64,000 bases of DNA, from assembly GCA_963848295.1 (NCBI GenBank), contig CAWKDB010000010.1, positions 3,104,001 through 3,168,000 of the forward strand. The letters run 5' to 3'. Both the position numbers and the translations under genes were made by a program. Below the pieces are notes generated by a model, which worked only from the letters and a program-made list of their open reading frames with translations, was not told the DNA's origin and did not search any database. The DNA is from an uncultured delta proteobacterium. Its GTDB lineage: Bacteria; Myxococcota_A; Polyangia; Haliangiales; Haliangiaceae. Position 1 is the first letter of the stretch. Every line of letters begins with the position of its first letter. Below, in pieces: positions 521 to 61,275 of the stretch.

Positions 521-608
521 GGGACGGTGTTCACTTTGTCAACCGACGAGCACGCGGTGGCCCAACGATCACCGGCCCTTACCTGGGGACGGTGTTCACT
601 TTGTCAAC
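521..608 (+). repeat. Repeat doublet, variant copy (GGGACGGTGTTCACTTTGTCAAC x2)
   Basis: Identical 23-mers at 521-543 and 586-608, 65 bp apart; resembles the GACGCTGTCTCTTTTGTCAAC family; second copy overlaps the amt stop codon. Confidence 0.85.
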
Positions 609-1825
609 TATGGGTGAGCAGTCGCCCCGGGACTCGCATAGGCCGATTCGCCATGCAGCGAGCCATCGAGCCCGTCGTGCTCGGTCTCCGCATCGACGCG
701 CAGGCCGATCGTCAAATCGATCGCCTTCAGCAGCGCGAACGTGACCATCGCAGCCCAAGCGCCGGCGGCTCCGACCGCGATCGCCTGCTTGCCGAGCAGC
801 GACAACCCTCCGCCGTGACCATCGTTGAGCGTCGCCCGCGCGAACACGCCGGTAAGCAGCGCACCGGTCGCGCCGCCGACACCGTGCACGCCGAACGCGT
901 CGAGCGCGTCGTCGTAGCCGAGCCTGGTCTTCGCGACGACGGCCCCGTAACAGATCGCGCCGGCCGCGACGCCGATCACGAGCGCGACGACCGGCGAGAC
1001 GAAGCCCGCCGCCGGCGTGATCGCGACCAGCCCCGCGACTAAGCCCGACGCGACCCCGAGCATCGTCGCTTTGCGGATCCGTGCGCCTTCGACGAGCGTC
1101 CACGTCAGCGCGCCAGCGGCCGCCGCGAGGTGCGTGTTGATCAACGCTAGCGCGGCGCTGCTGTTCGCGCCGGTCGCCGAACCGGCGTTGAACCCGAACC
1201 AGCCAAACCACAATAAGCCGGCGCCGAGCACCGTCATCGTCAGGTCGTGCGGCGGATGGCGCGTCGCCGGATAACCTCGGCGCTTGCCGATCACGAGCGC
1301 GCATACGAGCGCGGACACGCCCGACGAGAGATGCACGACCGTACCGCCTGCGAAGTCGATCGCCCCGAGCCGGGCGAGCCAGCCGCCGTCGCCCCAAGTC
1401 CAATGCGCGATCGGATCGTAGACCAGCGTCGTCCACGCGAGCGTGAACACGACGAACGCCGAGAACTTGATCCGCTCCGCGAATGCGCCCGAGATCAGCG
1501 CCGGCGTGATGACCGCGAACATGCATTGGTACGCGACGAACGCGAGGTGCGGCACCGTGCCGTGTACCGACTCCGGTCCGATGCCGTCGAGCGCCGCGAA
1601 GTCCAGGCCGCCGATCACGCCGTGCCAGCTCGGGCCAAACGCGAGCGTGTAGCCGATCAGCACGAACTGCACGCTGACCAGGCCCAGCGCGAAGAAGCTG
1701 TGCATGAACGTCGACAGCACGTTCTTGCCTTGGACCATGCCGCCGTAGAACAGCGCGAGCCCGGGCGTCATCAGCATCACGAGCGCGGTGGAGATGAGCA
1801 GCCAGGCGGTGTCGCCGGAGTTCAT
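608..1825 (-). CDS. amt: Ammonium transporter (Amt family)
   Basis: MNSGDTAWLLISTALVMLMTPGLALFYGG, DFAGGTVVH, LLWFGWFGFNAGS and DDALDAFGVHG motifs. Confidence 0.97.
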   Translation of the reverse strand: MNSGDTAWLLISTALVMLMTPGLALFYGGMVQGKNVLSTFMHSFFALGLVSVQFVLIGYTLAFGPSWHGVIGGLDFAALDGIGPESVHGTVPHLAFVAYQCMFAVITPALISGAFAERIKFSAFVVFTLAWTTLVYDPIAHWTWGDGGWLARLGAIDFAGGTVVHLSSGVSALVCALVIGKRRGYPATRHPPHDLTMTVLGAGLLWFGWFGFNAGSATGANSSAALALINTHLAAAAGALTWTLVEGARIRKATMLGVASGLVAGLVAITPAAGFVSPVVALVIGVAAGAICYGAVVAKTRLGYDDALDAFGVHGVGGATGALLTGVFARATLNDGHGGGLSLLGKQAIAVGAAGAWAAMVTFALLKAIDLTIGLRVDAETEHDGLDGSLHGESAYASPGATAHP

Positions 1826-1900
1826 CTAGCGACTGTGCTGTGCACCGTGTTTCCGGCGCGTAACCGGCGGGAAAAACCTATCGAGGGCGCACTGGGCAAA

Positions 1901-1995
1901 GTGACAAAAGAGACAGCGTCACCATGACTTTATGTGTGATTGCAATCGCTTGCGCGATCGGGCTTGTCGCGCAAGGTGACAAAAGAGACAGCGTC
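1901..1995 (-). repeat. Repeat doublet (GTGACAAAAGAGACAGCGTC x2 on + strand)
   Basis: Identical 20-mers at 1901-1920 and 1976-1995, 75 bp apart. Confidence 0.95.
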
Positions 1996-1996
1996 C

Positions 1997-2629
1997 CTAT
2001 TTCGTGCCGAACAGGCGGTCGCCGGCGTCGCCGAGGCCCGGGACGATGTAGCTCTTGGCGTTGAGGCGCTCGTCGACCGAGGCGGTGTAGATCGGGACGT
2101 CGGGGTGCGCCGCGTGGAAGACTTTGATGCCCTCGGGGCAGGTCAACAGGCACACGAACTTGATCGAGCGCGGGCCGCTTTGCTTCAGCCGCGTGATCGC
2201 GGCGACTGCCGAGTTCCCGGTCGCGAGCATCGGGTCGACGACGATCGCATCGCGGTCGCCCATGTTGTCGGGGACTTTGTAGAAGTACTCGACCGCCTCG
2301 AGCGTCTTCGGATCGCGGTAGAGGCCGATGTGGCCGACGCGTGCCGACGGCAAGATCTCGAGCATGCCGTCGAGGATGCCGTTGCCCGCGCGCAAGATCG
2401 AGATCAGCGCGATCTTCTTGCCGTCGAGCGCGGTGCCCATCATCGGCGCGATCGGGGTCTCGATCGCGATCTTCGTCGTCGGAAAATCGCGACACACCTC
2501 GTAGCCGAGCAGCATGCTGATCTCTTTGAGCAGCGCGCGGAACTTGCTGGTGCTGGTCTCTTTCGAGCGCATCAGCGTGAGCTTGTGTTGAACGAGCGGG
2601 TGATCGATGACGTGGACAGAGCCGGCCAT
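1997..2629 (-). CDS. upp: Uracil phosphoribosyltransferase
   Basis: [25 protein letters not shown] and [17 protein letters not shown] motifs. Confidence 0.97.
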
Positions 2630-2644
2630 GGCGGCCGGACCCTA

Positions 2645-2833
2645 TCACTTCACTACGTGAACCGAAGGGGTCGCGGCGTGGCACGCGGTCGCTAGGGTGC
2701 TCATCGTTAGCACCGCGGCGATCGCGATGCAGCCGGCGAACACGAAGTCGCGAACGCGGCTCGAGCGCTGGCGGTTGGCGATGGTGGTGAGGCGATTAAT
2801 CGTGAGCTCCTTGAAAGTGCGGGGCGTCCGCAC
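2645..2833 (-). CDS. Small hypothetical membrane protein
   Basis: 62-aa ORF with one hydrophobic segment, filling the gap upstream of upp. Confidence 0.5.
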   Translation of the reverse strand: MRTPRTFKELTINRLTTIANRQRSSRVRDFVFAGCIAIAAVLTMSTLATACHAATPSVHVVK

Positions 2834-2969
2834 GCGAGCGACGTATTAGCGAGACGCAGGCCAGCCTTTAGCCACGGACTTTCGGGTACTTGAACACCGA
2901 AATGCGGTCGCACCCACTGTCTCAGCCCAGACGCTGTCGCACCCCAGCCGCCGCCGCTATGCTCGGCGA

Positions 2970-5042
2970 GTGCGCGCGCTGGTGATCCTCGCGATCGCGT
3001 CGTGCAGCGTGCCCGACGGCGACTACTTCGGGCGAATCCCGGACCGGCTCGAGCCGCGCCACCTGCGCTGGTGCAATCAGGGCGAGCCCGATCATCTCGA
3101 TCCCGCGCTCGCGTCGAGCACCGCCTCGTCGCCGGTGGTGAGCCCGCTGTTCGCCGGCCTGACCGAGTACGGCATGGATGGCGCGCCGGTGCCGAGCCTC
3201 GCGACCTCGTGGGACGTGTCACCGGATCAGCGCACGTTCACGTTTCACCTCCGGCGCGATGCGCTGTGGTCGAACGGTCGCGCCGTCACCGCGTATGACC
3301 TCGCGTTCACCGCGCTGCGCATCGCGCATCCGCTGACCGCGTCGCCGAACCTGATCGACCTCGGGTCGGTGCGCAACGCGAACGCGTACTTCGCCAAGCG
3401 CGTGTTCGTGCTCGCGGTCGATGCCGCGCCCTATCGCGCCGGCGACCTCGTCGAGCCGATCGGCGAGCCCCCGAGTGACATCGATCAGCGCACTGCACCC
3501 GGCGAGCTCGCGCTGCGCGATCTCGGCGCGCCGGCCGCGGAGAGCTACGCGCGCGTGCCCGCGGGCACGGTCGTCACGCTCGTGTGGACCAGCGGCGGCC
3601 ACGCGACCTTGCCTTCACCCGACGGCGAGAGCTGGGCCTACGTGTTCTGGCCGCGCGACGAGTCCGGCGTCTACGGCTGGGTGCCGGCGAGCGAGCTCGG
3701 TGACGGCCCGGCGAAGCCGATCGCGGTGCGCGGCTTCGGCGATGCCAACGGCAAGCGAGTGATCGTGCCCGAGCGCGCGCTCGTCTATACGCCGGCTGTC
3801 CTCGGCGTTCGCGTGATCGATGCCGCGACGATCGCCTTCGAGACCGATGGCCCATCGCCGTCATTCGTCGCGCTGACCGACGGCCGTGCATTTCGCGCGA
3901 CGCCGATCGAGCAGGTGTCGCGCTGGCCGCTGCGCTGGACGCGCCCCGAGCACATCGTGACGTCTGGGCCGATGCGGCTCGTCGAGTGGGCCGAGCGAGA
4001 CAAGCTCGAGCTCGTCCGTTCGGCGAGCTACTGGAACCCGTCGGAGGTCAAGCTCGACCGGCTCACGATCCTGTCGATCGACGATCAGGCCGCCGCGACG
4101 AACCTGTACTACACCGCCGAATGCGACGCGACCGCCGCTAACGACATCCCATCGACGTACCTGCCCGCGATCGACGGCGAGCGCGGCACGCGGTTCAAAG
4201 ACTTCGTGGTCGCGCCGTATCTCGGCGTCTACTTCGTGTGGGTCAACACCGAGAAGCTCACGAATCGCCATCTGCGCCGTGCGTTGTCACTCGCGATCGA
4301 CCGCACGCAGATCCCACGGTTCACGCACGGCGGCGAGATCCCGAGCGCGCGGTTGACGCCGGGCACGCCGATCGCTCAGCTCTCGCCCGCGGACCTCGCG
4401 CTGTGCGGAGTCAGCCATGACACGCCCGGCGTCGCGATGATCATGGAGACCGGCGCGCTGTGTTACGTGCCGCCGCCCGGGCTCGACTATGATCTCACGC
4501 GTGCGCGCCAAGAGATCGCCGCCGCGCGCGCCGAGCTCGGCACGATCGGGACGCTGCACTATCGCTATAACTCGGGCAGCGAAGGTCACAAGCAGATCGC
4601 GGAATATCTGCAAGCGCAGTGGGCGAAGCTCGGGCTCGACGTCACGGTCGACGCGCAGGAGTTCAACTCGATGCTCGCCGATAGCAAGGCCGGCAAGTTC
4701 GAGCTCCTGCGGCTCGGCCAGATCGGCAACGCGCAGGATCCAGAGAGCGAGTTCCTCGACCTGTTCCGGTGCGGCGCGTCCGACAATCGCGGGCGCTATT
4801 GCAGCCCAGCGTTCGAGAAGTTGATGCAAGAGGCGAGCACGATGGCGGATCGCACGGCGCGCAACGCGAAGCTGCGCGAAGCGGAGAGCGTGATGCTCGA
4901 GGATGCGCCGGTGATCCCGCTCTATGCATACACCCAGAAGCTGCTGATCAAACCGTACGTGCGCGATCTCGCGGTCAACGTGCTCGCAGAGCCGCCGCTG
5001 TGGCGCGCGTGGATCGATCCCGACTGGCGGACCGCGAAATGA
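2970..5042 (+). CDS. oppA: Peptide ABC transporter substrate-binding lipoprotein (OppA-like) with an internal insertion
   Basis: Lipobox IASC, EPDHLDPA, TFTFHLRRDALWSNG, EDAPVIPLY; lies directly upstream of two permease genes. Confidence 0.85.
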   Translation: MRALVILAIASCSVPDGDYFGRIPDRLEPRHLRWCNQGEPDHLDPALASSTASSPVVSPLFAGLTEYGMDGAPVPSLATSWDVSPDQRTFTFHLRRDALWSNGRAVTAYDLAFTALRIAHPLTASPNLIDLGSVRNANAYFAKRVFVLAVDAAPYRAGDLVEPIGEPPSDIDQRTAPGELALRDLGAPAAESYARVPAGTVVTLVWTSGGHATLPSPDGESWAYVFWPRDESGVYGWVPASELGDGPAKPIAVRGFGDANGKRVIVPERALVYTPAVLGVRVIDAATIAFETDGPSPSFVALTDGRAFRATPIEQVSRWPLRWTRPEHIVTSGPMRLVEWAERDKLELVRSASYWNPSEVKLDRLTILSIDDQAAATNLYYTAECDATAANDIPSTYLPAIDGERGTRFKDFVVAPYLGVYFVWVNTEKLTNRHLRRALSLAIDRTQIPRFTHGGEIPSARLTPGTPIAQLSPADLALCGVSHDTPGVAMIMETGALCYVPPPGLDYDLTRARQEIAAARAELGTIGTLHYRYNSGSEGHKQIAEYLQAQWAKLGLDVTVDAQEFNSMLADSKAGKFELLRLGQIGNAQDPESEFLDLFRCGASDNRGRYCSPAFEKLMQEASTMADRTARNAKLREAESVMLEDAPVIPLYAYTQKLLIKPYVRDLAVNVLAEPPLWRAWIDPDWRTAK

Positions 5043-5959
5043 TGCGGTTCGTCGCAGGTCGGATCGTCGCCAGCGTCGCGATCGTGCTCGTCGTCGCGAC
5101 CGCGAGCTTCTTGTTGTTGCACGCCGCGCCCGGTGGGCCGTTCGACACCGACCAGCGCCGATCGGCCGAGGTCCAACGCGCGATGGAGCAGCGCTACGGC
5201 CTGCGCGATCCATTGTGGCAGCAGTACGTGCGCGAGATGACGGCGCTCGCCCACGGTGATCTCGGCTGGTCGACGAAGCACGACGAGCCGGTCAGCACGT
5301 TGATCGCCGAGCACGGGCCGGTCAGCGCCGCGATCGGCTTGCTCGGACTGATCGGAGCGGTAGGGATCGGGTTGGCGATCGGCGTGTTCGCTGCGTGGCG
5401 GCGCAGCACGTGGGTCGACTACGCGTTGATGTCGGTCGCGCTCGTCGGGATCTCGATCCCGTCGTTCGTGATCGGGCCGCTGTTGATCGCCGCGCTCGCG
5501 ATCCATCTCGGCTGGTTGCCACCGGCGCGGATCGACGGCGCCGCGTCGTACATCTTGCCGGCGCTGACCTTGGGCCTCGTCTACCTCGGTACGATCGCGC
5601 GGCTCGCTCGCGGCAGCATGCTCGACGTGCTCGGCCAAGACTTCGTGCGCACCGCGCGCGCGAAGGGCCTGAGCGAACGCCGCGTCGTGTGGAAGCACGC
5701 GCTGCGCGTCGGCTGCGTGCCGGTCGTGACCTATCTCGGGCCGGCGACCGCGGCGATGATCTCGGGCTCGTTCGCGGTCGAGAAGATCTTTCAGATCCCG
5801 GGGCTCGGCACGTACTTCATCGACAGCATCACCGATCGCGACTACGCGGTCGTGACCGGGGTGTTCGTGTTCTACGCCGCGTTCCTCGTGCTGTTGAACC
5901 TCGTCGTCGACATCGCGTACGGCGTGATCGACCCGCGGATCCGCAGGGAGGCCGCGTGA
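5039..5959 (+). CDS. oppB: Peptide ABC transporter permease
   Basis: APGGPF, EAA loop DFVRTARAKGLSE, RDY motif; ATGA overlap with the upstream stop. Confidence 0.9.
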   Translation: MMRFVAGRIVASVAIVLVVATASFLLLHAAPGGPFDTDQRRSAEVQRAMEQRYGLRDPLWQQYVREMTALAHGDLGWSTKHDEPVSTLIAEHGPVSAAIGLLGLIGAVGIGLAIGVFAAWRRSTWVDYALMSVALVGISIPSFVIGPLLIAALAIHLGWLPPARIDGAASYILPALTLGLVYLGTIARLARGSMLDVLGQDFVRTARAKGLSERRVVWKHALRVGCVPVVTYLGPATAAMISGSFAVEKIFQIPGLGTYFIDSITDRDYAVVTGVFVFYAAFLVLLNLVVDIAYGVIDPRIRREAA

Positions 5960-7668: not shown

Positions 7669-7671
7669 CGA

Positions 7672-7932: not shown

Positions 7933-7945
7933 GCCCGCAGTATAC

Positions 7946-34809: not shown

Positions 34810-35389
34810 CACGGCAAGTGTAGCTCGGCGCGTGCGGTCTCGATCGCCTGCGCGAGATCCGGTGCCAGCTCGCACTCGACGACCAGCTCGCCGCCGTCGG
34901 GGTGAGCGACTCGCAACGACGTCGCATGCAGCGCGAGTCGATGCAGACCGAACCGGTCGCGCCACAGCCGATTGTGCTCGCCCTTGCCGTAGCGCACGTC
35001 GCCGATCAGCGGACACGCGATGTGCTTGCAGTGCCGGCGGATCTGATGAAGCCGGCCGGTGCGCGGCCTCGCTTCGACCACCGCGTAGCGCCCGAAAGTC
35101 TCGAGCCGGAGCAGCTCGGTGATCGCCGGCACCCGTGCCTCGCCCGGCGCGCGTGGGATCGCATGGTCGATCACGACCTGCTCCGGCGGATGCCCGCGAG
35201 TGACCGCGAGATACCGCTTGTGCGCGTTCGGCCACGCCTCGGAGAACGCACGGGCGGCTTCCTTGTCGAGCGCGAACAACACGATGCCGGAGGCGCCGCG
35301 ATCGAGGCGATGCACCGGGTAGACGTACGCCCCGACCTCGTCGCGCACGCGCTGGAGCAGGCGTCGTCGTCGTCGGCCCAGACCAGGTC
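34809..35389 (-). pseudogene. RluA/TruC-family pseudouridine synthase, 5'-truncated and frameshifted
   Basis: PVHRLDRGASG, TGRLHQIRRH, PLIGDVRYG and LALHA present; the usual N-terminal xKPxG motif region is absent; upstream WADDDD lies in another frame and abuts the repeat doublet. Confidence 0.7.
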
Positions 35390-35484
35390 GACGCTGTCTC
35401 TTTTGTCAACTTGCGCCCCGACCCTCGCTTGCTATCTGTGCGAGTTCGTTCGAGAAAAATGGTGACGCTGTCTCTTTTGTCAAC
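35390..35484 (+). repeat. Repeat doublet (GACGCTGTCTCTTTTGTCAAC x2)
   Basis: Identical 21-mers at 35390-35410 and 35464-35484, 74 bp apart. Confidence 0.95.
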
Positions 35485-37670
35485 TAACGGGGTTCGCTGG
35501 GTGGGCCGAGGTGCTGGCGGAAGAAGTCGACCTGGACCTGCTCGCGCGCGAGGTTGAGCTTCGGGTCCGGCACCATGTGCGTCGCCGACAGCGTGATGAC
35601 CTCGGCGCGCTTGCCCGCGACGTACAACGCCTCGATCAGCGCCAGCGTGTTCGCGAAGTGGACGTTGTCGTCGGTGATGCCGTGGATGATCAGCAGCGGT
35701 CGGGTCAAGCTCGCCGCGTAGGTCAACACGCTCGCCTCCGCATAGCCGGCGGCGTTGCGATCCGGCGTCTTCATGTAGCGCTCCGTGTACGCGCTGTCGT
35801 AGAGCGCCCAATCCGTGACCGGCGCACCCGCGACCGCGGCCTTGAACAGCTCAGGGTGCAGCAACACCGCCATCGCGGCGAAGTACCCCCCGAACGACCA
35901 GCCGGCGACGCCGACCCGATCGAGATCCATCTCGGGGTGGCGAGCACCGAGCGCGCGCAGCCCGGCGACCTGATCGTCCATCGCGACGGAGATCAGATCT
36001 TTCAGGATCGCGCGCTCCCATGCTCGGCCCCGGAACGGGGTGCCGCGACCGTCGGTGCGCACGACGATGAACCCGGCGTCGGCGTACCACTGGTCCATCA
36101 CGTAGTCGTCGAGTGCGTCGGTGACCATCGTCTTGTGCGGTCCGGCATAGACCGTGAGCAGCACGGGATAGCGCTGGCGCGGATCGAACGTGCGCGGGCG
36201 AGTCACCGCCGCGTATTGCGTGCGGCCGCCGACCTCCACCGTCTCGATCACCGTCGTCGGCACCAGGCTCGGGCGCTCCGCGACCGACGGCAGCTCGTAG
36301 CGCCCGGTCCGGGTGACTGCGTAGGTGTGATGCCCGCCGGCGTGCGAGCGCTCGACGATCACCGTGACATCGTGGTTCGCCGCGCCCATCGCGAAGCCAT
36401 CGCCGCTCGAGATCCGCTGCGGCGCGCCGCCGTCGAACGGAATCCGCAGCACGTCTTGCTTCGTGGGATCGGCGCCGGCCGTGACGATCGCCGCCTTGTC
36501 CTCGATCCCGACCAACGCGCGCAAGCCGAGCTCTGGCTGGGTCAGGGCGCGCACGAGCTTGCCATCCGGTGCATGAAGCTCGAGCGTCCACGCGCCGGAA
36601 GCTTCGGTCATCCACAGCCACCCGGAGCCGTCGAGCAGCCAGCGCGGCGCACCAGCATCGGCGTTGATCCACGCCTCGTCGTGCTCGGTGAATAGCGCGG
36701 ACGCGGTCGCTGCCGTCGCGTCGAGCCGGAGCAGCTCGACGTCGGTCTGGTCGCGATTCATGACGAGCGCGGTCGGTGGCGCGTGCGGGCGCCACGACAC
36801 GCTGACCAGGTACGGATACCGCGCGATCTCCCACCTGATCCACTTCGCATCGCCACCGCTCGCGGCGACGACGCCGAGATCGACGATCGCGTTTGGCGTG
36901 CCCGCGCGCGGATACTTGAACGCCACCGGCGCGCGCTCGGGGTGGCGCGCGTCGGCGACGTAGATCGTCTCGACCGGACGAAGATCGCTGCGCTCGAACA
37001 ACAGCTGCGAGCTATCCGGCGACCACCAGAACCCGCGGCGCCGGCCAAGCTCCTCTTGCGCGACGAACTCGGCGACGCCGTACTCGAAGCCTTCGGGGTG
37101 ATGGGTGAGCCGTCGGGGCGCGCCCCCAGCCGTGACGACGCAGAGGTCGCCGCCACGCACGAACGCGATCTTCGCGCCGTCCGGCGACAGGTGCGGATCG
37201 TAGGCCTCGCCGCCGGGATCGATCATGTGCCGCGCGCCGGTCGTGCGATCGATCAGGTAGAGCTTGCCGCCGAGCGGGACCATGACGATGTGGCCGTCTT
37301 CGGAGACGTCCACGTCGACCACGCCGCGCGTCGCGGTTCGGGTCCGTTCGCGCCGCGCCTTCTCGGCATCGGACAGGTGCTCGTCGCCGGTGCCGAGCAG
37401 CTCTGCAGCGGTCACCAGCGTCTTGACCGCGCCGGTCTTCGTGTCGAGCTCGTACAGGTCGGCGGCAAACTCGCGCGCGGCGGTCCGGCGGAACAGCACC
37501 GCGCCGTCCTTCGCGATCGCGACGAGCGTCGGCAACCCGAGCCGGAAGTTGAAGGTCGCGGCGGAGTCGGCGAGGAGCTTGGCGTCTAGAGCGGGCCAGG
37601 GCATGGTCGTGGGCCTTGCAGGGTGGCAGGCGGTGACCGCGACGAGCGCGAATGCCGCTAGACGGGTCAT
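35484..37670 (-). CDS. S9 family dipeptidyl peptidase IV-like lipoprotein
   Basis: Lipobox VTAC; AEFVAQEE, GWSFGG, YTERYM, HGITDDNVH. Confidence 0.93.
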   Translation of the reverse strand: MTRLAAFALVAVTACHPARPTTMPWPALDAKLLADSAATFNFRLGLPTLVAIAKDGAVLFRRTAAREFAADLYELDTKTGAVKTLVTAAELLGTGDEHLSDAEKARRERTRTATRGVVDVDVSEDGHIVMVPLGGKLYLIDRTTGARHMIDPGGEAYDPHLSPDGAKIAFVRGGDLCVVTAGGAPRRLTHHPEGFEYGVAEFVAQEELGRRRGFWWSPDSSQLLFERSDLRPVETIYVADARHPERAPVAFKYPRAGTPNAIVDLGVVAASGGDAKWIRWEIARYPYLVSVSWRPHAPPTALVMNRDQTDVELLRLDATAATASALFTEHDEAWINADAGAPRWLLDGSGWLWMTEASGAWTLELHAPDGKLVRALTQPELGLRALVGIEDKAAIVTAGADPTKQDVLRIPFDGGAPQRISSGDGFAMGAANHDVTVIVERSHAGGHHTYAVTRTGRYELPSVAERPSLVPTTVIETVEVGGRTQYAAVTRPRTFDPRQRYPVLLTVYAGPHKTMVTDALDDYVMDQWYADAGFIVVRTDGRGTPFRGRAWERAILKDLISVAMDDQVAGLRALGARHPEMDLDRVGVAGWSFGGYFAAMAVLLHPELFKAAVAGAPVTDWALYDSAYTERYMKTPDRNAAGYAEASVLTYAASLTRPLLIIHGITDDNVHFANTLALIEALYVAGKRAEVITLSATHMVPDPKLNLAREQVQVDFFRQHLGPPSEPR

Positions 37671-53750: not shown

Positions 53751-55187
53751 ATGTGGCTGGTGGTCGTGGCCAGCAGCTGTCGTGGCTCGGAGCCGTCGCA
53801 CCAGCCGTCGGGGCGACCGGAGCCAACCTCGGCGCAAGAGCCGACGGCGGTGGCGGCCCGGCCCGACTTCCCGGAAGGCACGCGGTCGCTGACCCTGGTC
53901 CGCACGGTCGGCGTTCGGCTCGAGCCGGGCGACGATGCCAAGCGGATCGGCACGGTCGCGATCGATACGCGCGTCGCCTGGACCCGGACCGCGGCAGGCA
54001 AGGGCTGCGGCAAGAACTGGGTCGAGATCCAGCCTCGCGGCTGGATCTGCGGCGACTACGTCACCGCGAGCAAGCTCGTGCCGTACGGCCAGGAGGTGCC
54101 ACAGCTCGAGCGCGGCGAGATCGTGCCTGGCACTTACGGCAAGGTCACCGGCGCGAGCTCGGTGACGTACTTGCTCGAGAAACCGAAGATCAAGCCCAAG
54201 AAGTCGAGGCACGACAAGCATCCGGTGACCTCGCCCAAAGACGTGGACGACGATCCGAAGCTGCCGCGCATGGTCGAGAACCAGCCGTTGATCGGTTCGA
54301 TGAACGTGCGCGAGTACGACGCGCTCACGGTCGGTGGCAAGCTGTACTGGAAGATCAGCCACCGCGACAAAGACAACGACTACGTGCTCGCGAGCGCGAT
54401 CACGAAGCACGTGCCGTCGAAATGGCGCGGTACTCGACTCGGCGATGACACCGGCTGGGGCGTGCCGTTCGCGTGGGTCACCCCGCGCGGCGGCGGCGTC
54501 ACGGCATGGACGATGGTCAAGCCGAACGGAGGCGGTGTCGTGCGTCAGCTCGCGGCGCGAACGCCGGTGCCGGTGCTCGAGACCGCGAGCGATGCGCAGC
54601 AACATCCGATCGCGTATCGGGTGAGCGACAAGGAGTGGATCGCGGCCGGCGATGTCCGCGTATTCGAGCCAGCGCCGCCGCCCGAGACCCTGATCCCGGG
54701 CGAGCGCTGGATCGACGTCGATCTCGACGACCAGATCCTCGTCGCATTCGAAGGCGAGACGCCGGTGTACTCGACGCTCGTCTCGTCGGGCGCCAAGGAT
54801 ACGCCGACCGAAACCGGGATCTATCGCGTCTGGATGAAAGAGTCGGAGGCCGACATGAAAGGCCTCAACGGCGAGGATCCGTACTCGGTCGCGACCGTGC
54901 CGTGGACCGAGTTCTTCAGCCCGGAGAAAGGCCTGGCGCTGCACACCGCGTACTGGCACGACCAGTTCGGCAAGGCGCGCAGCCACGGCTGCATCAACCT
55001 CGCGCCGCGCGACGCGCGCTGGCTCTACTTCTGGAGCGACCCGCAAGTGCCGCCCGGGTGGACGATGACCGCAGGCGTCGTCGAACTGCCCGGCTCGATC
55101 GTGCGAGTCCGATCGAAAGCCGATCCCAACCCGGCGATCAAAGGCTACGCAAAGAAAGTCTACGAGGCGCGCCTCGCGCCCAAGTGA
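53751..55187 (+). CDS. L,D-transpeptidase (YkuD family); start uncertain
   Basis: WIDVDLDDQ, TPTETG, LALHTAYWHDQFGKARSHGCINL. Confidence 0.9.
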   Translation: MWLVVVASSCRGSEPSHQPSGRPEPTSAQEPTAVAARPDFPEGTRSLTLVRTVGVRLEPGDDAKRIGTVAIDTRVAWTRTAAGKGCGKNWVEIQPRGWICGDYVTASKLVPYGQEVPQLERGEIVPGTYGKVTGASSVTYLLEKPKIKPKKSRHDKHPVTSPKDVDDDPKLPRMVENQPLIGSMNVREYDALTVGGKLYWKISHRDKDNDYVLASAITKHVPSKWRGTRLGDDTGWGVPFAWVTPRGGGVTAWTMVKPNGGGVVRQLAARTPVPVLETASDAQQHPIAYRVSDKEWIAAGDVRVFEPAPPPETLIPGERWIDVDLDDQILVAFEGETPVYSTLVSSGAKDTPTETGIYRVWMKESEADMKGLNGEDPYSVATVPWTEFFSPEKGLALHTAYWHDQFGKARSHGCINLAPRDARWLYFWSDPQVPPGWTMTAGVVELPGSIVRVRSKADPNPAIKGYAKKVYEARLAPK

Positions 55188-55343
55188 TGGTGACGCTGTC
55201 TCTTTTGTCACCTTGCGCTCGATCGACCGATCCGCTAAGTGATGGTGACGCTGTCTCTTTTGTCACCTTGCGCTCGATCGACCGATCCGCTATCGCCGCG
55301 TAGTTCAAGCGAATTCCCTGGGGACGCTGTCTCTTTTGTCCAC
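55182..55343 (+). repeat. Repeat triplet containing an exact 55-bp tandem duplication
   Basis: Core copies start at 55192, 55247 and 55323; 55182-55236 is identical to 55237-55291. Confidence 0.95.
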
Positions 55344-55402
55344 TTGCGCTCCGAGGTGCCGGCACGACGGGCACGACGGCGCACGCCCGAACCGATGACG
55401 TG

Positions 55403-55555
55403 ATGCGATTCGGGGCCCGCATGGCTCTAGTCGTGATGATGGGTTGTGGCTCGACATCGCCGCCGATCGTGCCAACTGGCATCGTCGTTGCGGCGGGCGG
55501 TGCGGGCGCGACCGGACCAACTGTTGACATCGGCTTGCGAAGCGCGTGCCTGTGA
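55403..55555 (+). pseudogene. 50-codon lipoprotein-like fragment between inverted repeat clusters
   Basis: Manual translation MRFGARMALVVMMGCGSTSPPIVPTGIVVAAGGAGATGPTVDIGLRSACL*. Confidence 0.4.
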
Positions 55556-55564
55556 GCGAGCAAA

Positions 55565-55659
55565 GTGACAAAAGAGACAGCGTCCCCAGCGAAATCGCTT
55601 AGATAACCGGACGATCCGTGTCGCGCTCGATCGCGCAAGTTGACAAAAGAGACAGCGTC
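55565..55659 (-). repeat. Repeat doublet (inverted orientation)
   Basis: GTGACAAAAGAGACAGCGTC at 55565-55584 and TTGACAAAAGAGACAGCGTC at 55640-55659, 75 bp apart. Confidence 0.95.
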
Positions 55660-56263
55660 ACCAGGCTAGGGGCAGCCGCCGCGCTTCGACCGCATCGAGC
55701 GCGCGGACGAGCGCTGCGTCGAAGACGTCGGCGAGGGTGTCGCGCGAGACGCGGTAGAGGGTCGGCGCGGTCGGGTCGTACGCGCACGAGTAGTCGGGGT
55801 AGTCGTCGGAGATCATGATCGCGCCGTCGCCGAAGGTCAGCGGGAACAGGCGGCACACCGCCGGCTTCGTGCCGCGAAAGTCCCAGCCCGCCTCGAGCGA
55901 CGCGCGGTGGATCGCACAGCCGCGGCCATCGTGCGAGAGGAAGAGGCAGCCGTCGCCGAGCACCGCGGTGCGCACCATCGTGCCGGATGGCATGTCGGGA
56001 TCGATCTCGGGCTCGCTCTCGTCGAACCACGGCAGGTCGCGCGCGGCGTCGGACAGCACGGCGCGGATCGAGTCTTTGCGCACGAGGATCTTGTCGCGCT
56101 CGAACAGATCGACATCGGCGCCGTATTGGCAGCACGCATCGAGCTTCGTCGCGCGGCCCTTGTTCTCGAGCTTGCACGTGTGAGTCATGCAATCGGCGAC
56201 CACGCGATGCGTGAAGATCTTCGGATCGACGCGGCGGAACCGCGCGTGGTCGAGCTCGATCAT
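55658..56263 (-). CDS. Cys-cluster protein (DUF3109/YkgJ-like, putative Zn or Fe-S binding)
   Basis: ACCQYG, CLFL...GCAIH, KPAVCRLFP. Confidence 0.75.
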   Translation of the reverse strand: MIELDHARFRRVDPKIFTHRVVADCMTHTCKLENKGRATKLDACCQYGADVDLFERDKILVRKDSIRAVLSDAARDLPWFDESEPEIDPDMPSGTMVRTAVLGDGCLFLSHDGRGCAIHRASLEAGWDFRGTKPAVCRLFPLTFGDGAIMISDDYPDYSCAYDPTAPTLYRVSRDTLADVFDAALVRALDAVEARRLPLAW

Positions 56264-56766
56264 TCGGCGGCGGACCTTAGCAGCTCGGCGAGGTCGTAAC
56301 GGCTGCCATCACCGCCCGCTTCGCGATCGACCGCGAGTAGGAGCGCGGATAGCGTCTCTTGATCGAGGATGCAATCCGCATCGGCCGCCGCGGGTCCAGT
56401 TCGGGTGAAGTTGCGAAAGCACGCCTGAACGATCGGCAGGCCATGTTCACGCAACCGGATCGGGGCGCCGTGCGACCGACACACCAGCGGGCGAGCCGCA
56501 TAGATCGCGCACCGACCCGCCGGATCGAGTGCCGCACAGCGGTCCGCCGGTGCCGCCGCGGCCTGGCTGGCGAGCGCCCGGCGATCCAGCTCCGCCCACG
56601 CCTCGAGCTCGGCGCGGATGGCCGCAGCCTCTACCCCGGTCACGGTCAGCCGCGTATGACAGCAGTCCGAGCAACCGGACGAGCACTGCAAGTCGCGGGT
56701 GTGCCTCGCTTCTACGCGAGAGAAGAAGCCATCGACCTTCGCTGTTAGGAGCTGCCAACGCGACAT
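56260..56766 (-). CDS. YkgJ-family cysteine cluster protein
   Basis: CSSGCSDCC, CAALD...CAIYAARPLVCR. Confidence 0.88.
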   Translation of the reverse strand: MSRWQLLTAKVDGFFSRVEARHTRDLQCSSGCSDCCHTRLTVTGVEAAAIRAELEAWAELDRRALASQAAAAPADRCAALDPAGRCAIYAARPLVCRSHGAPIRLREHGLPIVQACFRNFTRTGPAAADADCILDQETLSALLLAVDREAGGDGSRYDLAELLRSAAE

Positions 56767-56794
56767 CGTACGCAGTCTACCCTCTACCCTCGCC

Positions 56795-57691
56795 ATGGAC
56801 CTCAACGACATCGTCGTGTTCACCAAAGTGGTGGAGACCAAGAGCTTCACCGGCGCGGCCGAGCTGCTCGGTCTTCCCAAGTCGACCGTCAGTCGCAAGC
56901 TCGCTCAGCTCGAGGAGCGACTCGGTGTTCGGCTCGTCCAGCGAACGACGCGCAAGCTCGCCCTGACCGACATCGGCGAGGCGTACTACGCGCGTTGCAG
57001 TCGGATCGTGTCGGACGCCGTACAAGCCGAGCTGCTCGTCACCGACATGCAGGCATCGCCTCGCGGCCGGCTGCGTGTCACGGCGCCGATCGATTTCTCT
57101 GCGCGTCACATCGGCGGCCTGATCGCCGAGTTCAACTCGCTGCACCCCGAGGTCAACATCGAGCTCGAGAGCACGAACCGGGTCGTCGATCTGATCGAAG
57201 AGAGCTTCGATGTCGCGGTGCGGTTCGGACCGATGCCCGAGTCGACTCTGATCGCGCGCCGACTGTGCAGCATCCACATGGTGTTGGTCGCCGCGCCATC
57301 GTACCTCGCGAAGCGCGGCACGCCGATGCATGCGGAAGATCTCGATCAGCACGATCGCTTGCTGTTCACGCCGGGCGCGCGCAATCAGACCTGGACGCTT
57401 GCGAACGGCGAGGCGACCTACGAGTTCGGCAGGCCCGCGCGGTTTGCGAGCAACAACTACGGGGCGCTGCGCGACGTCGCGATCGCCGGCGGTGGCATCG
57501 CGGTGTCGACCGACTTCATGGCCGCGCACGACATCGCGACCGGCATGCTCGTTCGCGTGCTGCCGCAGTGGCGATCGCAGGGCACCGAGGTTCATGCGGT
57601 CTATCCCGCACGTCAGAATCTACCGCCGCGCCTCACATTGTTTCTCGATCATCTCGCGAAATCGCTGAATCCGCCGCCCTGGCTGAGATAA
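56795..57691 (+). CDS. LysR-family transcriptional regulator
   Basis: SFTGAAELLGLPKSTVSRKLAQLEERLGVRLVQRTTR; substrate-binding domain. Confidence 0.95.
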   Translation: MDLNDIVVFTKVVETKSFTGAAELLGLPKSTVSRKLAQLEERLGVRLVQRTTRKLALTDIGEAYYARCSRIVSDAVQAELLVTDMQASPRGRLRVTAPIDFSARHIGGLIAEFNSLHPEVNIELESTNRVVDLIEESFDVAVRFGPMPESTLIARRLCSIHMVLVAAPSYLAKRGTPMHAEDLDQHDRLLFTPGARNQTWTLANGEATYEFGRPARFASNNYGALRDVAIAGGGIAVSTDFMAAHDIATGMLVRVLPQWRSQGTEVHAVYPARQNLPPRLTLFLDHLAKSLNPPPWLR

Positions 57692-57702
57692 AACGCGAGG
57701 CA

Positions 57703-58506
57703 ATGACGATCACGCTCGACGAGATCGAAGACGCCGCCAACGAGTACTTGGTCCCGATCGGGCTAAAGGTCCTGCTCGCGCTCGCGATCTTCGTGTTCGG
57801 ACGCATGCTCGCGCGCGCGCTGTGGAAGGCGATCGATCGCGTCCTCGAGCGCAGCAAGATCGATGTCTCGCTGCGGCAATTCCTCGGCGACGTGGCCTAC
57901 GCCACGCTGTTAGTCGCGGTCGTCATCGCCTCGCTGGACACGGTCGGCATCAAGACCACCGCGATCGTCGCCGTCCTGGGCGCCGCTGGCCTCGCGGTCG
58001 GGCTCTCGTTGCAGGGCTCGCTGTCGAACTTCGCGGCCGGCGTGATGTTGATCGTGCTGCGCCCTTACAAAGTCACCGACCTCGTGATGATCGGCAAGTA
58101 CCTCGGGCGGATCGACGCGATCAAAGGCTTCTATACGGTCCTCATCACCGCCGACAACCGTGAGATCACGATCCCGAACGGCCAGATCATCGCCGCGCCG
58201 ATCGAGAACTACAGCGTGCTCGGCCGGCGTCGTGTCGATCTGCTCGTCAACGTCCAGGCGACCGACGTCGCGAAGCTGCGCGCGCTGCTCGAAGCGGCGC
58301 TCGCCGGTGACGATCGGATCGCGACCTCGCCGGCTGCCACGATCGACATCGCCGAGGTCGCCGACACCGGGATCAAGCTCTACGTTCGGCCGTGGACGAC
58401 CGCGGACAACTACGCGAAGGTCGCGGCCGAGACGATGGACAAGATCAAAGACGCGCTGCTCGCCGCGACGATGAAGTTCAGCGTCGTGCTGCAACCCGGC
58501 GCTTAG
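57703..58506 (+). CDS. mscS: Small-conductance mechanosensitive channel
   Basis: GAAGLAVGLSLQGSLSNFAAGV, DNREITIPNG. Confidence 0.88.
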   Translation: MTITLDEIEDAANEYLVPIGLKVLLALAIFVFGRMLARALWKAIDRVLERSKIDVSLRQFLGDVAYATLLVAVVIASLDTVGIKTTAIVAVLGAAGLAVGLSLQGSLSNFAAGVMLIVLRPYKVTDLVMIGKYLGRIDAIKGFYTVLITADNREITIPNGQIIAAPIENYSVLGRRRVDLLVNVQATDVAKLRALLEAALAGDDRIATSPAATIDIAEVADTGIKLYVRPWTTADNYAKVAAETMDKIKDALLAATMKFSVVLQPGA

Positions 58507-58834
58507 CCGGCGGCGCAGCCAACGACCGCGGCAGCACGTGGACCGGGCGCAGCTTGCGCAAGTCGTCGAGCCATTCGCCGTCCGCGGTCGACTTCGTGGT
58601 CAACATCATCACTTCGATCCGCAGGATCGCGATCGACATCGCGCACAGCAGGGCTTGCACGCTGTCGGCGCCGTACAGCGTGATCGGACCGACGACGAGC
58701 CTGCCGCGCATCGACAGCTCGACGTTGCATGCCCACGCGAGCCCATCGGCGACCGGCGCGAACACGCGCAGGCGCAGGGGCGTGGTCTTGCGCGCGCGCA
58801 CGAGCGGGATCACGCGTTCGATGAACAGCTTCAT
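58478..58834 (-). CDS. Hypothetical protein (DUF6968-like)
   Basis: YGADSVQALLCAM motif; ATGA overlap with the upstream DUF423 gene. Confidence 0.5.
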   Translation of the reverse strand: MKLFIERVIPLVRARKTTPLRLRVFAPVADGLAWACNVELSMRGRLVVGPITLYGADSVQALLCAMSIAILRIEVMMLTTKSTADGEWLDDLRKLRPVHVLPRSLAAPPAKRRVAARR

Positions 58835-59193
58835 ACGCTGCGCAAGGCTCCGTAGGCCAAACATGCCCAGCCGGCGAGAAATGCGAGGCCGCCGATCGGC
58901 GTGATCGCACCGAGGATCTTCACGTCGGTGAGCGCGAGCGCGTACAGGCTGCCCGAGAACACGACGATCCCGGCTTGAAAGATCCAGCCCGCGATCACCG
59001 CGCCGCGCACCGCGAGCGACGCGGCGAGCAACATCGCGAGCGCGTGATACATCTGATACCGCGCCCCGGTCTCGAACACCTCGAGCGCGTGCGCCTCGAT
59101 CCGGTCTTTGAGCCCGTGCGCGGCGAAGGCACCGGCAGCGATCGCGATCGCCGCGTTGATCGCGCCGGCGGCGACGAGGCTGCGCGAGGTCAC
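58831..59193 (-). CDS. DUF423 (YgdD-like) membrane protein
   Basis: GAFAAHGL, RYQMYHAL, FSGSLY, GAITPIGG. Confidence 0.92.
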   Translation of the reverse strand: MTSRSLVAAGAINAAIAIAAGAFAAHGLKDRIEAHALEVFETGARYQMYHALAMLLAASLAVRGAVIAGWIFQAGIVVFSGSLYALALTDVKILGAITPIGGLAFLAGWACLAYGALRSV

Positions 59194-59260
59194 GGCGCGA
59201 CTGTACCGCGTGCCGCGAAAAACCGCAGAGCTCGGCGCCCATTCGTGCGTTGATGGGGCA

Positions 59261-59938
59261 ATGAGGGTCTACGTCGTCGCGTTCGTCTGCTCGGCGGCCA
59301 CCGCTCACGCCGCACCGAGCCCGATCGGCCGTTGGAGCATGAACCTCGAGCTGCACTACGAAGCGTACCCGACGATGGAGATGAACATCGATCGCACCCT
59401 GGTCGGCGCGGCGTGGTTCGAGCTCACCGCGAACGGCCGCGTCGCCGGCTGCCTCGGCCAGCACGCGATCGAAGATGTCCGGGTCGGCAAGTACCAGCCA
59501 CCCGACTACAAGGATCGTCACGACCATCGCGACACACGCTCGTTGCGCGCGCTCACCGGCCGGTGGACCGCGACCGCGACCGGCTTCGATCTCGAGCTCA
59601 CTGCTGCGAGCTGGAACAGCTGTACGTTGTCGCCCACCGCGACATTCGATCCTCAGATCAGGCTGCACTGCGCCGCCGTGACTCGGCTCGGCAAGGCAAC
59701 GGTGGATTGCACGCGATCGAACGGCGGAGACATCGACGGCATCGGCATCCGGCTCGCGACGCCACCGGACTCGACGAATCCGATGTCCGACCCGCGAGGT
59801 GACTCGATGCTCCTCGGCCGCGCCCCCGGGCTGCGCGTCAAGGTCGACCAGAACGCGCACACCCAGATCCCGAGGATCATCACGACGGTGGGTGCGACCA
59901 CGCTCGCCGAAGCCGACTTCGTGACGCCGCACCCGTGA
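59261..59938 (+). CDS. Hypothetical secreted protein (paralog A)
   Basis: Signal peptide ending TAHA; colinear similarity to 60414-61151. Confidence 0.75.
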   Translation: MRVYVVAFVCSAATAHAAPSPIGRWSMNLELHYEAYPTMEMNIDRTLVGAAWFELTANGRVAGCLGQHAIEDVRVGKYQPPDYKDRHDHRDTRSLRALTGRWTATATGFDLELTAASWNSCTLSPTATFDPQIRLHCAAVTRLGKATVDCTRSNGGDIDGIGIRLATPPDSTNPMSDPRGDSMLLGRAPGLRVKVDQNAHTQIPRIITTVGATTLAEADFVTPHP

Positions 59939-59984
59939 GACGCCGGTGCTGGGCCTTTGCGGTCACCTCGCCGGTCAAACGGCG

Positions 59985-60170
59985 TTAGCCCGCGCGCAAC
60001 ACCAGCGCGAGCAGCGCGATGCTCGCCGCGATCGCGACGAAGGCGACGAAGAAAGCCGAGTTGCTCATCGCCCATGGCTCGGTCTGGCCTATGTTCAGCT
60101 GGCGATCCCGCATTCGCTCGCCCATGTCGCGGGTCTCTGTCTTCATCAAGCGCAGCTGGGACACTGTCAT
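59985..60170 (-). CDS. Small hypothetical membrane protein
   Basis: 61-aa ORF with a C-terminal TM segment. Confidence 0.45.
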   Translation of the reverse strand: MTVSQLRLMKTETRDMGERMRDRQLNIGQTEPWAMSNSAFFVAFVAIAASIALLALVLRAG

Positions 60171-60215
60171 CCAAAAATTTTCGGTGATCCGCCACGCGAT
60201 CGCCAATTCCAGGGT

Positions 60216-60309
60216 GACGCTGTCTCTTTTGTCAACTTGCGCGCCGGCACCACCGCGCCAACCTCACGCGATCTAAGCGATCTCGTGGGACGCTGTCGCT
60301 TTTGTCAAC
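60216..60309 (+). repeat. Repeat doublet
   Basis: GACGCTGTCTCTTTTGTCAAC at 60216-60236 and GACGCTGTCGCTTTTGTCAAC at 60289-60309, 73 bp apart. Confidence 0.93.
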
Positions 60310-60319
60310 TTGTGCGGTC

Positions 60320-60371
60320 GCCCCCTGCGGATTCCCGCAGCCATAGCCCCCTGCGGATTCCCGCAGCCATA
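60320..60371. repeat. 26-bp tandem duplication containing a hairpin
   Basis: GCCCCCTGCGGATTCCCGCAGCCATA x2; CTGCGG-attc-CCGCAG stem-loop. Confidence 0.9.
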
Positions 60372-60413
60372 TCTAGCCGCAGACCGGGCCATGGGTTCGC
60401 GCGTTACGACGCC

Positions 60414-61151
60414 ATGCGCCTCGCGAGCTTGATGGCGGTAGGCCTCGGTGCGATCGCGTCGCGTGCCGCGCTCGCGAATTCGAGCGCGTCCGCGATCGGC
60501 GAGCGCTGGAGCATGAGCCTCGAGCTGCGCCACGGCACGTACATCGGGATGGAGCGCCACATCGCGACCGCGATCGACGGAGTCGCGTGGTTCGAGCTCG
60601 CGCCAGACGGTACCGCCCGCGGGTGCGTTGCCCGACATCAGAACCGACACGGAACCGAGAGCCACTTCGTCTCCTATGATCACGAGGATCACGACAACCA
60701 CGACGACGATCGCGATCTGCTCGCGCTGAAGGGCCGGTGGAGTCGCAGCGACGGGCAACTCGACTTGGCGTTTACTGCTGCGAGCTGGAACGGCTGCATG
60801 CTCGCTGCCGCGACGTTCGACCCTCACGAACGGCTGCGGTGCACGGTCGCAGCTGCAGCGCAGAACTTTCCTTGGGGTACGCTCGTATGCGAGAACGGCA
60901 AGGACGACCCGTTCGAGCTCGGCATTCATCTCGACGCCAAGCCTGAGGATTGGAGCCCGGGATCGTCGCCGTCGGGCCTGTCGTTCATTCTCGGCCCGGC
61001 GGCCGGCGTACACGTGCGGGTCGCTCAGGGAAGCGGTGACCGGATCCCGGCGATCGAAGTTCGAGTGGGCGCTGGATCGCTGCGCGAAGCCGACTTCAAG
61101 GCCGGCTCGGCGCACATCGTGGATGGTGTTGCACCGTCTCGGTGGCAGTGA
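60414..61151 (+). CDS. Hypothetical secreted protein (paralog B)
   Basis: Signal peptide; shares WSMxLEL, AWFEL, GRW, TAASWN and TFDP motifs with 59261-59938. Confidence 0.75.
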   Translation: MRLASLMAVGLGAIASRAALANSSASAIGERWSMSLELRHGTYIGMERHIATAIDGVAWFELAPDGTARGCVARHQNRHGTESHFVSYDHEDHDNHDDDRDLLALKGRWSRSDGQLDLAFTAASWNGCMLAAATFDPHERLRCTVAAAAQNFPWGTLVCENGKDDPFELGIHLDAKPEDWSPGSSPSGLSFILGPAAGVHVRVAQGSGDRIPAIEVRVGAGSLREADFKAGSAHIVDGVAPSRWQ

Positions 61152-61180
61152 GCGCCACAGCGCGATCCCGGCCGCGTAAG

Positions 61181-61275
61181 GTGACAATAGAGACAGCGTC
61201 CCCAGGACATCGGCTTAGATCACGGGACGTTATCCGGCTGGCGTCGGCGCACAAGTAGACAATAGAGACAGCGTC
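61181..61275 (-). repeat. Repeat doublet (inverted orientation)
   Basis: GTGACAATAGAGACAGCGTC at 61181-61200 and TAGACAATAGAGACAGCGTC at 61256-61275, 75 bp apart. Confidence 0.92.

What the first reader, a model, noticed from the sequence alone, without database searches (positions are those of the whole stretch)
521..61275. Dispersed family of ~20-bp repeats that always occur as ~75-bp-spaced direct doublets
Seen: 15 copies of GACGCTGTCTCTTTTGTCAM or close variants at 521/586, 1901/1976, 35390/35464, 55192/55247/55323, 55565/55640, 60216/60289 and 61181/61256. No single copies were found. Spacing is 73-76 bp, except 65 bp for the divergent pair and 55 bp for a tandem duplication. The core is not palindromic. 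The ~55-bp interior varies but is partly conserved: CCA...ATC(G)GCTTAGAT next to one core at 55585-55604, 61201-61220 and the reverse complement of 60271-60288, and GC(G/A)CAAG next to the other core. Inference: a ~95-bp non-autonomous element, or a two-site protein-binding array with fixed phasing. It differs from classical REP/REPIN units, which are palindromic and inverted. No cognate transposase or recombinase lies in this window.
Basis: partly seen in the sequence, partly recalled or inferred. Interest (0 to 1): 0.85.

Follow-up and report, generated by a model that had tools for sequence, protein, structure and literature searches.

The report
Doubled transposase ends, rewritten in place
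The paired short repeats are real: they are scattered copies of the two-part ends that frame two DNA-nicking transposase genes elsewhere in this bacterium's genome (a described but never tested kind), and that enzyme likely nicks just in front of each repeat, which would let it duplicate and overwrite copies where they already sit.

Summary
Observation confirmed, with corrections. The window holds 13 family-A cores and 2 cores of a separate family B (521/586; 65-bp period). Genome-wide there are 155 A cores (62 doublets, 19 singles, 4 triples), 71 B, 23 C and 12 D. A cognate transposase exists outside the window: two single-copy HUH/Y1 genes with a DnaA-like C-terminal HTH are each framed by convergent doublets of their own family (A at C10:2.68 Mb, B at 1.10 Mb). 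This is the TIRtron/TIRYT arrangement (PMC3733652). A doublet is one element end; ends closer than 300 bp face inward in 29 of 29 cases. In a sister species most sites are shared, yet core position 10 switched in 37 of 48 orthologous cores while spacers often stayed orthologous. Tandem duplications at 12 A cores all start 8-14 nt upstream of the core and end variably, as a nick-extend-rejoin mechanism predicts (inferred). A-loci cluster around oriC here (29 of 53 versus 6.5 expected), not replicated in two other genomes. This scan reported the TIRYT link and in-place rewriting before, on other windows of this genome. New variant of a known kind.

The parts
521..609 (+). Family-B doublet (cores 523-540 and 588-605, period 65); inner core runs into the stop codon of the ammonium-transporter gene (608-610)
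   Evidence: same doublet at the orthologous site of G121; same core frames TnpA-B
1898..1998 (-). Family-A doublet (outer core 1978-1995, inner 1903-1920, period 75); outer core directly follows the TAG of upp
   Evidence: shared with G121, both cores switched at position 10
35386..35486 (+). Family-A doublet (35390-35407, 35464-35481, period 74); inner core ends in the stop codon of a DPP-IV peptidase gene
   Evidence: shared with G121
55182..55345 (+). Left end of a composite: family-A cores 55192, 55247, 55323, directly after the stop of an L,D-transpeptidase gene
55182..55291 (+). Exact 55-bp tandem duplication starting 9-10 nt upstream of the core (position -9/-8); inferred nick-extend-rejoin product
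55346..55561 (.). Enclosed 216-bp cargo, no called gene; with the left end and the inner right core it is absent from G121
55562..55662 (-). Right end of the composite: family-A doublet (outer 55642-55659, inner 55567-55584, period 75); GG-TGA-C supplies the stop of a DUF3109 gene; G121 keeps only a truncated outer core
60213..60311 (+). Left end: family-A doublet (60216-60233, 60289-60306, period 73), shared with G121
60414..61151 (+). Enclosed gene with no Pfam match, 40% identical to the neighbour 59261-59938; absent from the orthologous site of G121 together with the right doublet
61178..61278 (-). Right end: family-A doublet (outer 61258-61275, inner 61183-61200, period 75); the rtcA frame reads through the outer core to a stop at 61230

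Best explanation
The doublets are dispersed copies of the two-core terminal inverted repeats that frame two stationary Y1/HUH transposase genes of the TIRYT kind, and each enzyme likely binds its own core in double-stranded DNA through a DnaA-like helix-turn-helix and likely nicks about 10 nt upstream of it. Shown: TnpA-A (G000 C10:2679446-2680393) sits between convergent A doublets and TnpA-B (C10:1101402-1102325) between convergent B doublets; copies sit at gene 3' ends; cores change in concert between sister species at shared sites; tandem duplications start at a fixed place upstream of the core. Inferred: the nick leaves the enzyme on the core-side 5' end and a 3'-OH that host polymerase extends through the core; rejoining gives a tandem duplication with fixed start and variable end; a run length set by the protein-bound end gives the family's period; copying from another copy overwrites the core and leaves much of the spacer; strand transfer to a stop-codon junction seeds a new site. 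The weak A/T marks about 11 bp apart in the spacer (positions +45, +56, about +67) are likely further weak contacts of the same complex.
For: Each gene is framed by its own family. HUH (H59, H61) and Tyr117 are invariant in 33 of 33 aligned homologs; NCBIfam RAYT E~1e-10, below cut-off; best fold match TnpA-REP 4ER8, C-terminus matches a DnaA DNA-binding domain, 3PVP, TMt 0.76, E 0.014. 31 of 32 full-length homolog loci have a TIR pair, 16 with two or more cores at an end; four other genomes carry dispersed families of their own TIR (49, 24, 67, 13 copies). Family A was found in 2 of 138 family genomes, both with TnpA-A, at the same locus, dN/dS 0.23 (B 0.14). Position 10 is G in 97 of 99 held G121 cores and T in 129 of 154 G000 cores, each as at its TnpA; at 24 orthologous doublets 37 of 48 cores switched (both in 18 doublets) against 10% G>T in the spacers, with 0 changes in 480 invariant comparisons. 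Positions 0 and 13 are discordant in 18 of 46 and 16 of 48 against 10% expected. Spacers stay partly orthologous (62% vs 48%; up to 84%). Sites with conserved flanks hold B vs D, B vs C, A vs B cores. Duplications at 12 of 155 A cores (random control 1.1%) all start at -8 to -14 and end between -1 and +46, several with no microhomology; four more start at -10 to -12 in G043 and G160. In G043 the two units of a pair are more alike than units of other loci (60% vs 46%, n=19, p=0.04). The chemistry is model B of PMC3333891 Fig. 7.
Against: No biochemistry exists for this subclass in the papers read. Conversion tracts were not mapped; only 13 of 24 orthologous spacers exceed the non-orthologous 95th percentile and the ortholog is the best match in 8 of 24, so whole-end replacement explains some sites. 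In G000 the two halves of A doublets are no more alike than halves of different loci (29% vs 28%), so local duplication as their origin is not shown here. Four of the 8 repeat hits in G043/G160 start elsewhere (-2, -2, -4, -18). Host sequence can run up to -1 of the outer core (upp stop) and -9..-4 stays orthologous, which a simple insertion at -10 does not explain. Families C and D have no cognate gene in the 85%-complete assembly. The HTH Pfam hit is below cut-off.
Confidence: 0.7

Rival explanations
1. The units are ordinary non-autonomous miniature elements that the transposase moves whole (one end or an inward-facing pair), and shared sites reflect repeated re-insertion at the same hot spots rather than overwriting.
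For: Clean filled/empty pairs at convergent stop-codon junctions, 116-150 bp (L107_0, L119_0, L133_0, L178); 12 of 54 G121 clusters lack cores in G000; 29 of 29 close ends are convergent; both cores of a doublet switch together; 11 of 24 orthologous spacers are no better than non-orthologous ones.
Against: Doublets with both cores switched keep spacers 70-84% identical (L121, L122, L106, L134, L139); spacers within G000 form no young clades (mean 46%); the inner boundary of insertions is variable and no fixed target duplication was seen.
Confidence: 0.15
2. The transposase is a domesticated DNA-binding protein, and each doublet is kept by host selection as a binding site at gene ends near the origin; position 10 changed by parallel selected mutation as the HTH changed.
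For: Genes are single-copy, stationary and under purifying selection; ten core positions never change while spacers drift about as fast as synonymous sites of the transposase genes; period is held at 73-76; A-loci cluster at oriC; the inner 9-mer resembles a DnaA box (mean best match 6.23/9 vs 5.73 in shuffles, 31 related TIRs).
Against: Neutral-looking positions 0 and 13 are also reshuffled; family swaps need 4-5 changes at once; catalytic residues are intact; fixed-start duplications need a nick or block; the dnaA contigs of G043 and G160 hold 0 of 49 and 0 of 67 TIR copies.
Confidence: 0.1
3. The cores are spread by the transposase but homogenised by host RecA-type gene conversion, and the small duplications come from replication slippage at a bound-protein block.
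For: A 27-bp near-identical core in 155 copies is a substrate for conversion (established knowledge); old G variants are commoner on other contigs than on C10 (10 of 22 vs 7 of 63 ends, p=0.001).
Against: 27 bp is short for RecA (own knowledge); four duplications have zero microhomology; each genome's consensus matches its own transposase ends.
Confidence: 0.05

Closest known systems
TIRtrons / TIRYT and their dispersed TIR families (Di Nocera et al. 2013, PMC3733652; abstract, passages and section 14 read; Fig. 9 sequences not seen)
   Same: RAYT-like Y1 gene framed by terminal inverted repeats that may overlap its 3' end; TIRs begin with a G run; the TIRs form dispersed families of single, dimeric and grouped copies.
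   Different: Each end is two direct cores at a fixed lineage-specific period with a drifting spacer; the motif is GGKGACGC, not GGGGWSAS; concerted in-place change, fixed-start duplications and origin clustering are not in the passages read.
TnpA-Y1 subclass 2.1 (Quentin et al. 2018, PMC6006769; section 20 and passages read)
   Same: Long Y1 protein with a C-terminal Bac_DnaA_C/HTH_23-like domain and no REP hairpins nearby.
   Different: The paper notes that the GGGG motif does not resemble a DnaA box; here the inner 9-mer of the TIR (TTGTCAACT) does, weakly. Placement in their tree was not tested.
REP/BIME/REPIN with TnpA-REP (PMC3333891, PMC8266576, PMC3116915; passages read)
   Same: Single-copy, stationary, conserved Y1 enzyme serving many intergenic repeats at gene 3' ends; the rolling-circle-like amplification model B fits the duplications.
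   Different: No hairpin and no GTAG tag; doublets are direct, not inverted; breakpoints are set by distance, with no common dinucleotide such as C|T seen.
MITEs
   Same: Inward-facing end pairs of about 50-450 bp without coding capacity occur, with empty orthologous sites.
   Different: Many ends stand alone, the mobilising enzyme is HUH rather than DDE, and no fixed-length target duplication was seen.

Membership tests
TIRtron / TIRYT | Y1 transposase with HUH motif and catalytic Tyr | tested here: met
   H59, H61, Y117 invariant in 33 of 33; NF047646 E 1e-10 below cut-off; fold match 4ER8 E 4.9e-7
TIRtron / TIRYT | Gene framed by terminal inverted repeats instead of REP hairpins | tested here: met
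   Both genes lie between convergent doublets; 31 of 32 homolog loci likewise
TIRtron / TIRYT | TIRs recur as a dispersed family (single, dimeric, grouped) | tested here: met
   155 A and 71 B cores
TIRtron / TIRYT | GGGGWSAS motif (common, but stated not to be in all TIRs) | tested here: not met
   Family A reads GGKGACGC: G at the seventh place in 154 of 154, T at the third in 60 of 154
TnpA-Y1 subclass 2.1 | C-terminal HTH like Bac_DnaA_C, HTH_23 or HTH_28 | tested here: met
   TnpA-A: Bac_DnaA_C E 0.001 and HTH_23 E 0.12, both below cut-off; DnaA-DBD 3PVP TMt 0.76; no HTH hit for TnpA-B, which aligns at 54% over 290 aa
TnpA-Y1 subclass 2.1 | Position in the subclass tree (2.1.1 or 2.1.2) | not tested
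   No reference sequences of the subclass were fetched
REP / REPIN | Palindromic stem-loop with GTAG tag; doublet inverted | tested here: not met
   Core has no GTAG and at most a 5-6-bp stem in one variant; doublets are direct; folding z -2.06 to +1.56
MITE | Two TIRs with a fixed-length target-site duplication | tested here: inconclusive
   Some units have two ends; empty sites show overlapped stop codons (CTAG, TGA) at both sides but no consistent length
Structured RNA family | Match to an Rfam model | tested here: not met
   0 matches at gathering score in the window
TIRtron / TIRYT | Enzyme binds and cleaves its TIR | not testable with these tools
   Needs in vitro assay

The most novel reading that the evidence does not exclude
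TIRYT enzymes are domesticated repeat editors: a DnaA-like HTH reads a two-core ruler in double-stranded DNA, the HUH domain nicks at a fixed distance regardless of sequence, and nick-primed synthesis overwrites about 150 standing sites to track the enzyme's current specificity, keeping an array of protein-binding sites centred on the replication origin.
Probability: 0.25. Interest if true: 0.78.

Novelty: new variant of a known kind. Interest (0 to 1): 0.48.

Why it matters
Subclass 2.1 is the second largest group of RAYT-like nucleases (PMC6006769) and no substrate, cut site or mechanism appears in the papers read. This locus gives two enzyme-substrate pairs in one genome, a predicted nick (about -10 on the core strand), a candidate HTH box and natural specificity variants (position 10; A versus B cores; 74 versus 65 bp). 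An HUH nuclease that finds duplex DNA by an HTH and cuts by distance would differ from all hairpin-guided Y1 enzymes, and in-place overwriting would be a direct mechanism for concerted evolution of bacterial repeats.

Tried and rejected
Nine Pfam Y1_Tnp hits of the genome: none has an A-type core within 3 kb; the two cognate genes were missed by that search and found by translating DNA between convergent ends. Cargo mobilisation as the rule: rejected; genes between convergent ends are mostly ordinary (amt, upp, selB-like, ksgA-like, hutU-like by recalled resemblance except amt and upp) and those checked are shared with G121. Spacer hypermutation: not supported; spacer identity (about 55% ungapped) is like synonymous divergence of the transposase genes (pS 0.43-0.49), though lower than housekeeping third positions (81%) and alignable intergenic DNA (82-88%; only 2 convergent controls). 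Period as orthology signal: 17 of 24 same length versus 57% by chance, weak. Universal helical phasing: periods 56-74 vary. CRISPR mini-array: spacers carry fixed marks and are inherited at dozens of dispersed sites; cas genes were not searched. Origin clustering as a general rule: not replicated in G043 and G160; 3 of 13 cores within 300 kb of dnaA in G161. Distance of old variants from TnpA-A within C10: p=0.08 by end. Strand bias to replichore: weak (29 vs 19). Sequencing runs: no RNA holder listed; two contig sets showed no joint at the repeats and are too fragmented to tell. One search used a wrongly written pattern and is uninformative. Literature: 'TIRYT' is in 3 papers, 2 listed; HUH+DnaA+TIR+Y1 gave one work; Myxococcota+repetitive extragenic+transposase gave none; searches listed nothing on TIR doublets by title or abstract start. 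ISfinder was not available.
Full report
Observation. The pair at 521/586 has a different core. The window is G000 C10:3104001-3168000 of a 7.78-Mb, 85%-complete assembly; the closest titled relatives of its transposase are Kofleriaceae and other Myxococcota. A genome scan gives four related families, all GG(G/T)GACG-N7-TTGWCA(A/C)C: A 155 cores, B 71, C 23, D 12. Grouped into same-strand ends: A 62 doublets, 19 singles, 4 triples, with 57 of 70 gaps at 73-76 bp; B 24 of 26 gaps at 64-65; C 9 of 9 at 65-66; D singles only. Neighbouring ends closer than 300 bp face inward in 29 of 29 cases, at 0.3-3 kb in 13 of 21, beyond 10 kb in 6 of 77. With my own gene caller, 3 of 156 ends lie inside genes, and 40 of 85 A ends and 21 of 45 B ends have a same-strand stop codon within -3 to +8 nt of the outer core, often as TAG-G-GAC or GG-TGA-C.

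The cognate enzymes. Translating DNA between inward-facing ends gave two genes missed by the Pfam search: TnpA-A (C10:2679446-2680393, 316 aa) between A doublets and TnpA-B (C10:1101402-1102325, 307 aa) between B doublets, 54% identical, the only two tblastn hits in the assembly. Both stop codons lie in the inner core. They match the RAYT model below cut-off; HUH and Tyr117 are invariant in 33 aligned homologs; the model (pLDDT 90.8) matches TnpA-REP best and, in its C-terminus, a DnaA DNA-binding domain. Of 80 related loci I screened 49 roughly and the 32 with near full-length matches closely: 31 have an inverted TIR pair, 16 have two or more cores at one end and 8 at both, with periods mostly 56-74 bp. 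Other hosts carry dispersed families of their own TIR. The A core was found in 2 of 138 genomes of the family, a B-like core in 16 of 138. This is the TIRtron arrangement of PMC3733652 (abstract, passages, section 14 read) and fits subclass 2.1 of PMC6006769 (section 20 and passages). Figure 9 and the supplements of these papers were not seen and may show doubled ends.

Sister species. G121 is about 90% identical. I held 1.19 of its 7.5 Mb, in 104 loci, about 60 of them chosen because they carry repeats, so shared sites are over-counted. 42 of 54 G121 clusters with an ortholog have cores in G000, and 43 of 48 the other way. Both transposase genes are at the same loci, with dN/dS 0.23 and 0.14. 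Core position 10 is G in 97 of 99 held G121 cores and T in 129 of 154 G000 cores, as at each genome's TnpA-A. At 24 orthologous A doublets, 37 of 48 cores differ G versus T, both cores in 18 doublets, against 10% G>T in spacers; ten other positions show 0 changes in 480 comparisons; positions 0 and 13 are discordant in 39% and 33%. Spacers are 62% identical between orthologs and 48% between non-orthologs; 13 of 24 exceed the non-ortholog 95th percentile, the ortholog is the best match in only 8, yet several fully switched doublets keep 70-84%. At three sites with conserved flanks the two species hold cores of different families. Empty sites show 116-150-bp inserts at convergent stop codons, with the outer edge within about 10 nt of the core and a variable inner tail. 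In the window, four ends are shared, 60330-61280 (gene plus right doublet) is absent in G121, and 55192-55640 is reduced to a truncated core; direction of change is unknown.

Breakpoints. 14 of 261 cores (12 of 155 A) overlap a tandem duplication, against 1.1% of 3000 random places. In all 12 A cases the repeat starts at -8 to -14 (mostly -9 to -11, core G = +1) and ends between -1 and +46; four have no microhomology; no common dinucleotide is seen. The window's 55-bp duplication is one of them. In 20 regions of G160 and G043, 4 of 8 hits start at -10 to -12, the others at -2, -2, -4 and -18. In G043 the two units of 59-bp pairs are more alike than units of other loci; in G000 family A they are not. 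HUH enzymes leave a 5'-phosphotyrosine and a 3'-OH that can prime synthesis or attack (PMC8266576, passages), and nick, extension and rejoining is model B for BIME amplification (PMC3333891, passages). I infer a distance-set nick near -10; retention of host sequence at -9 to -4 means overwriting must begin at the core itself, which is best met by template switching and is not shown.

Recognition and position. The TIR beyond its G-run matches the DnaA-box consensus better than shuffles (6.23 vs 5.73 of 9; maximum 6.19 in 2000 shuffles; reverse strand 5.45; 31 related, non-independent TIRs). A spacers keep A/T marks near +45, +56 and weakly +67. dnaA (C10:2.945 Mb), parS-like sites and the skew minimum coincide; 29 of 53 A loci and 11 of 29 B loci on C10 lie within 300 kb of it (6.5 and 3.6 expected), 13 left and 16 right for A; C 0 of 9, D 2 of 8. 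TnpA-A marks the left edge of this cluster, so origin and source effects are confounded for A, and the dnaA contigs of G043 and G160 have no copies.

Verdict. Identity as TIRtron ends is near certain (about 0.92); the nick-extend-overwrite mechanism is inferred (about 0.55-0.6). Earlier agents of this scan reached the TIRYT link and in-place rewriting on other windows of this genome and saw small duplications at TIRtron ends in another genome; I had the TIRYT reading before the look-up and tested the rest here. PMC5581495 and PMC3116915 were read as passages. New variant of a known kind; interest 0.48.

Noticed in passing
G000 C10:1.10-1.46 Mb and 2.68-3.30 Mb: Both dense zones of repeats begin at a transposase gene and extend to one side only (A loci: 0 left vs 17 right of TnpA-A, 1 vs 6 of TnpA-B; B loci 0 vs 5 and 0 vs 4), for both families; unexplained.
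   Followed up: partly
G000 families C (23 cores) and D (12 cores), e.g. C10:4827304-4827374: Orphan TIR families with no cognate gene in the assembly; D occurs as inward-facing singles, and one D pair is a B pair in G121.
   Followed up: partly
window 59261-59938 and 60414-61151: Two paralogous genes with no Pfam match (40% identical); the region is only 69% identical to G121 amid 90% flanks.
   Followed up: no
window 55397-55555: The cargo reads as a short frame with a signal-peptide-like start (by eye), possibly a gene remnant.
   Followed up: no
window 61230-63505: rtcA-rtcB RNA-repair pair; the rtcA frame runs through the outer A core.
   Followed up: no
window 60323-60371: Direct repeat of about 24 bp (GCCCCCTGCGGATTCCCGCAGCCATA) just inside the left doublet, each copy with a small hairpin.
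   Followed up: no
L001-L009 (G000): Nine other Y1_Tnp genes without A-type cores; several share upstream sequence.
   Followed up: no
G121 C91 (L172) and C17 (L201): The 9-mer GTTGTCAAA is stuttered 2-3 times between inward-facing B cores.
   Followed up: no
G000 C7:5243-5334 and C10:3595300-3595391: Near-identical doublet and flanks on two contigs, probably an assembly duplicate or strain variant.
   Followed up: no
G138: B-like cores there often stand back to back (- then +, 29-45 bp apart), the opposite of G000.
   Followed up: no
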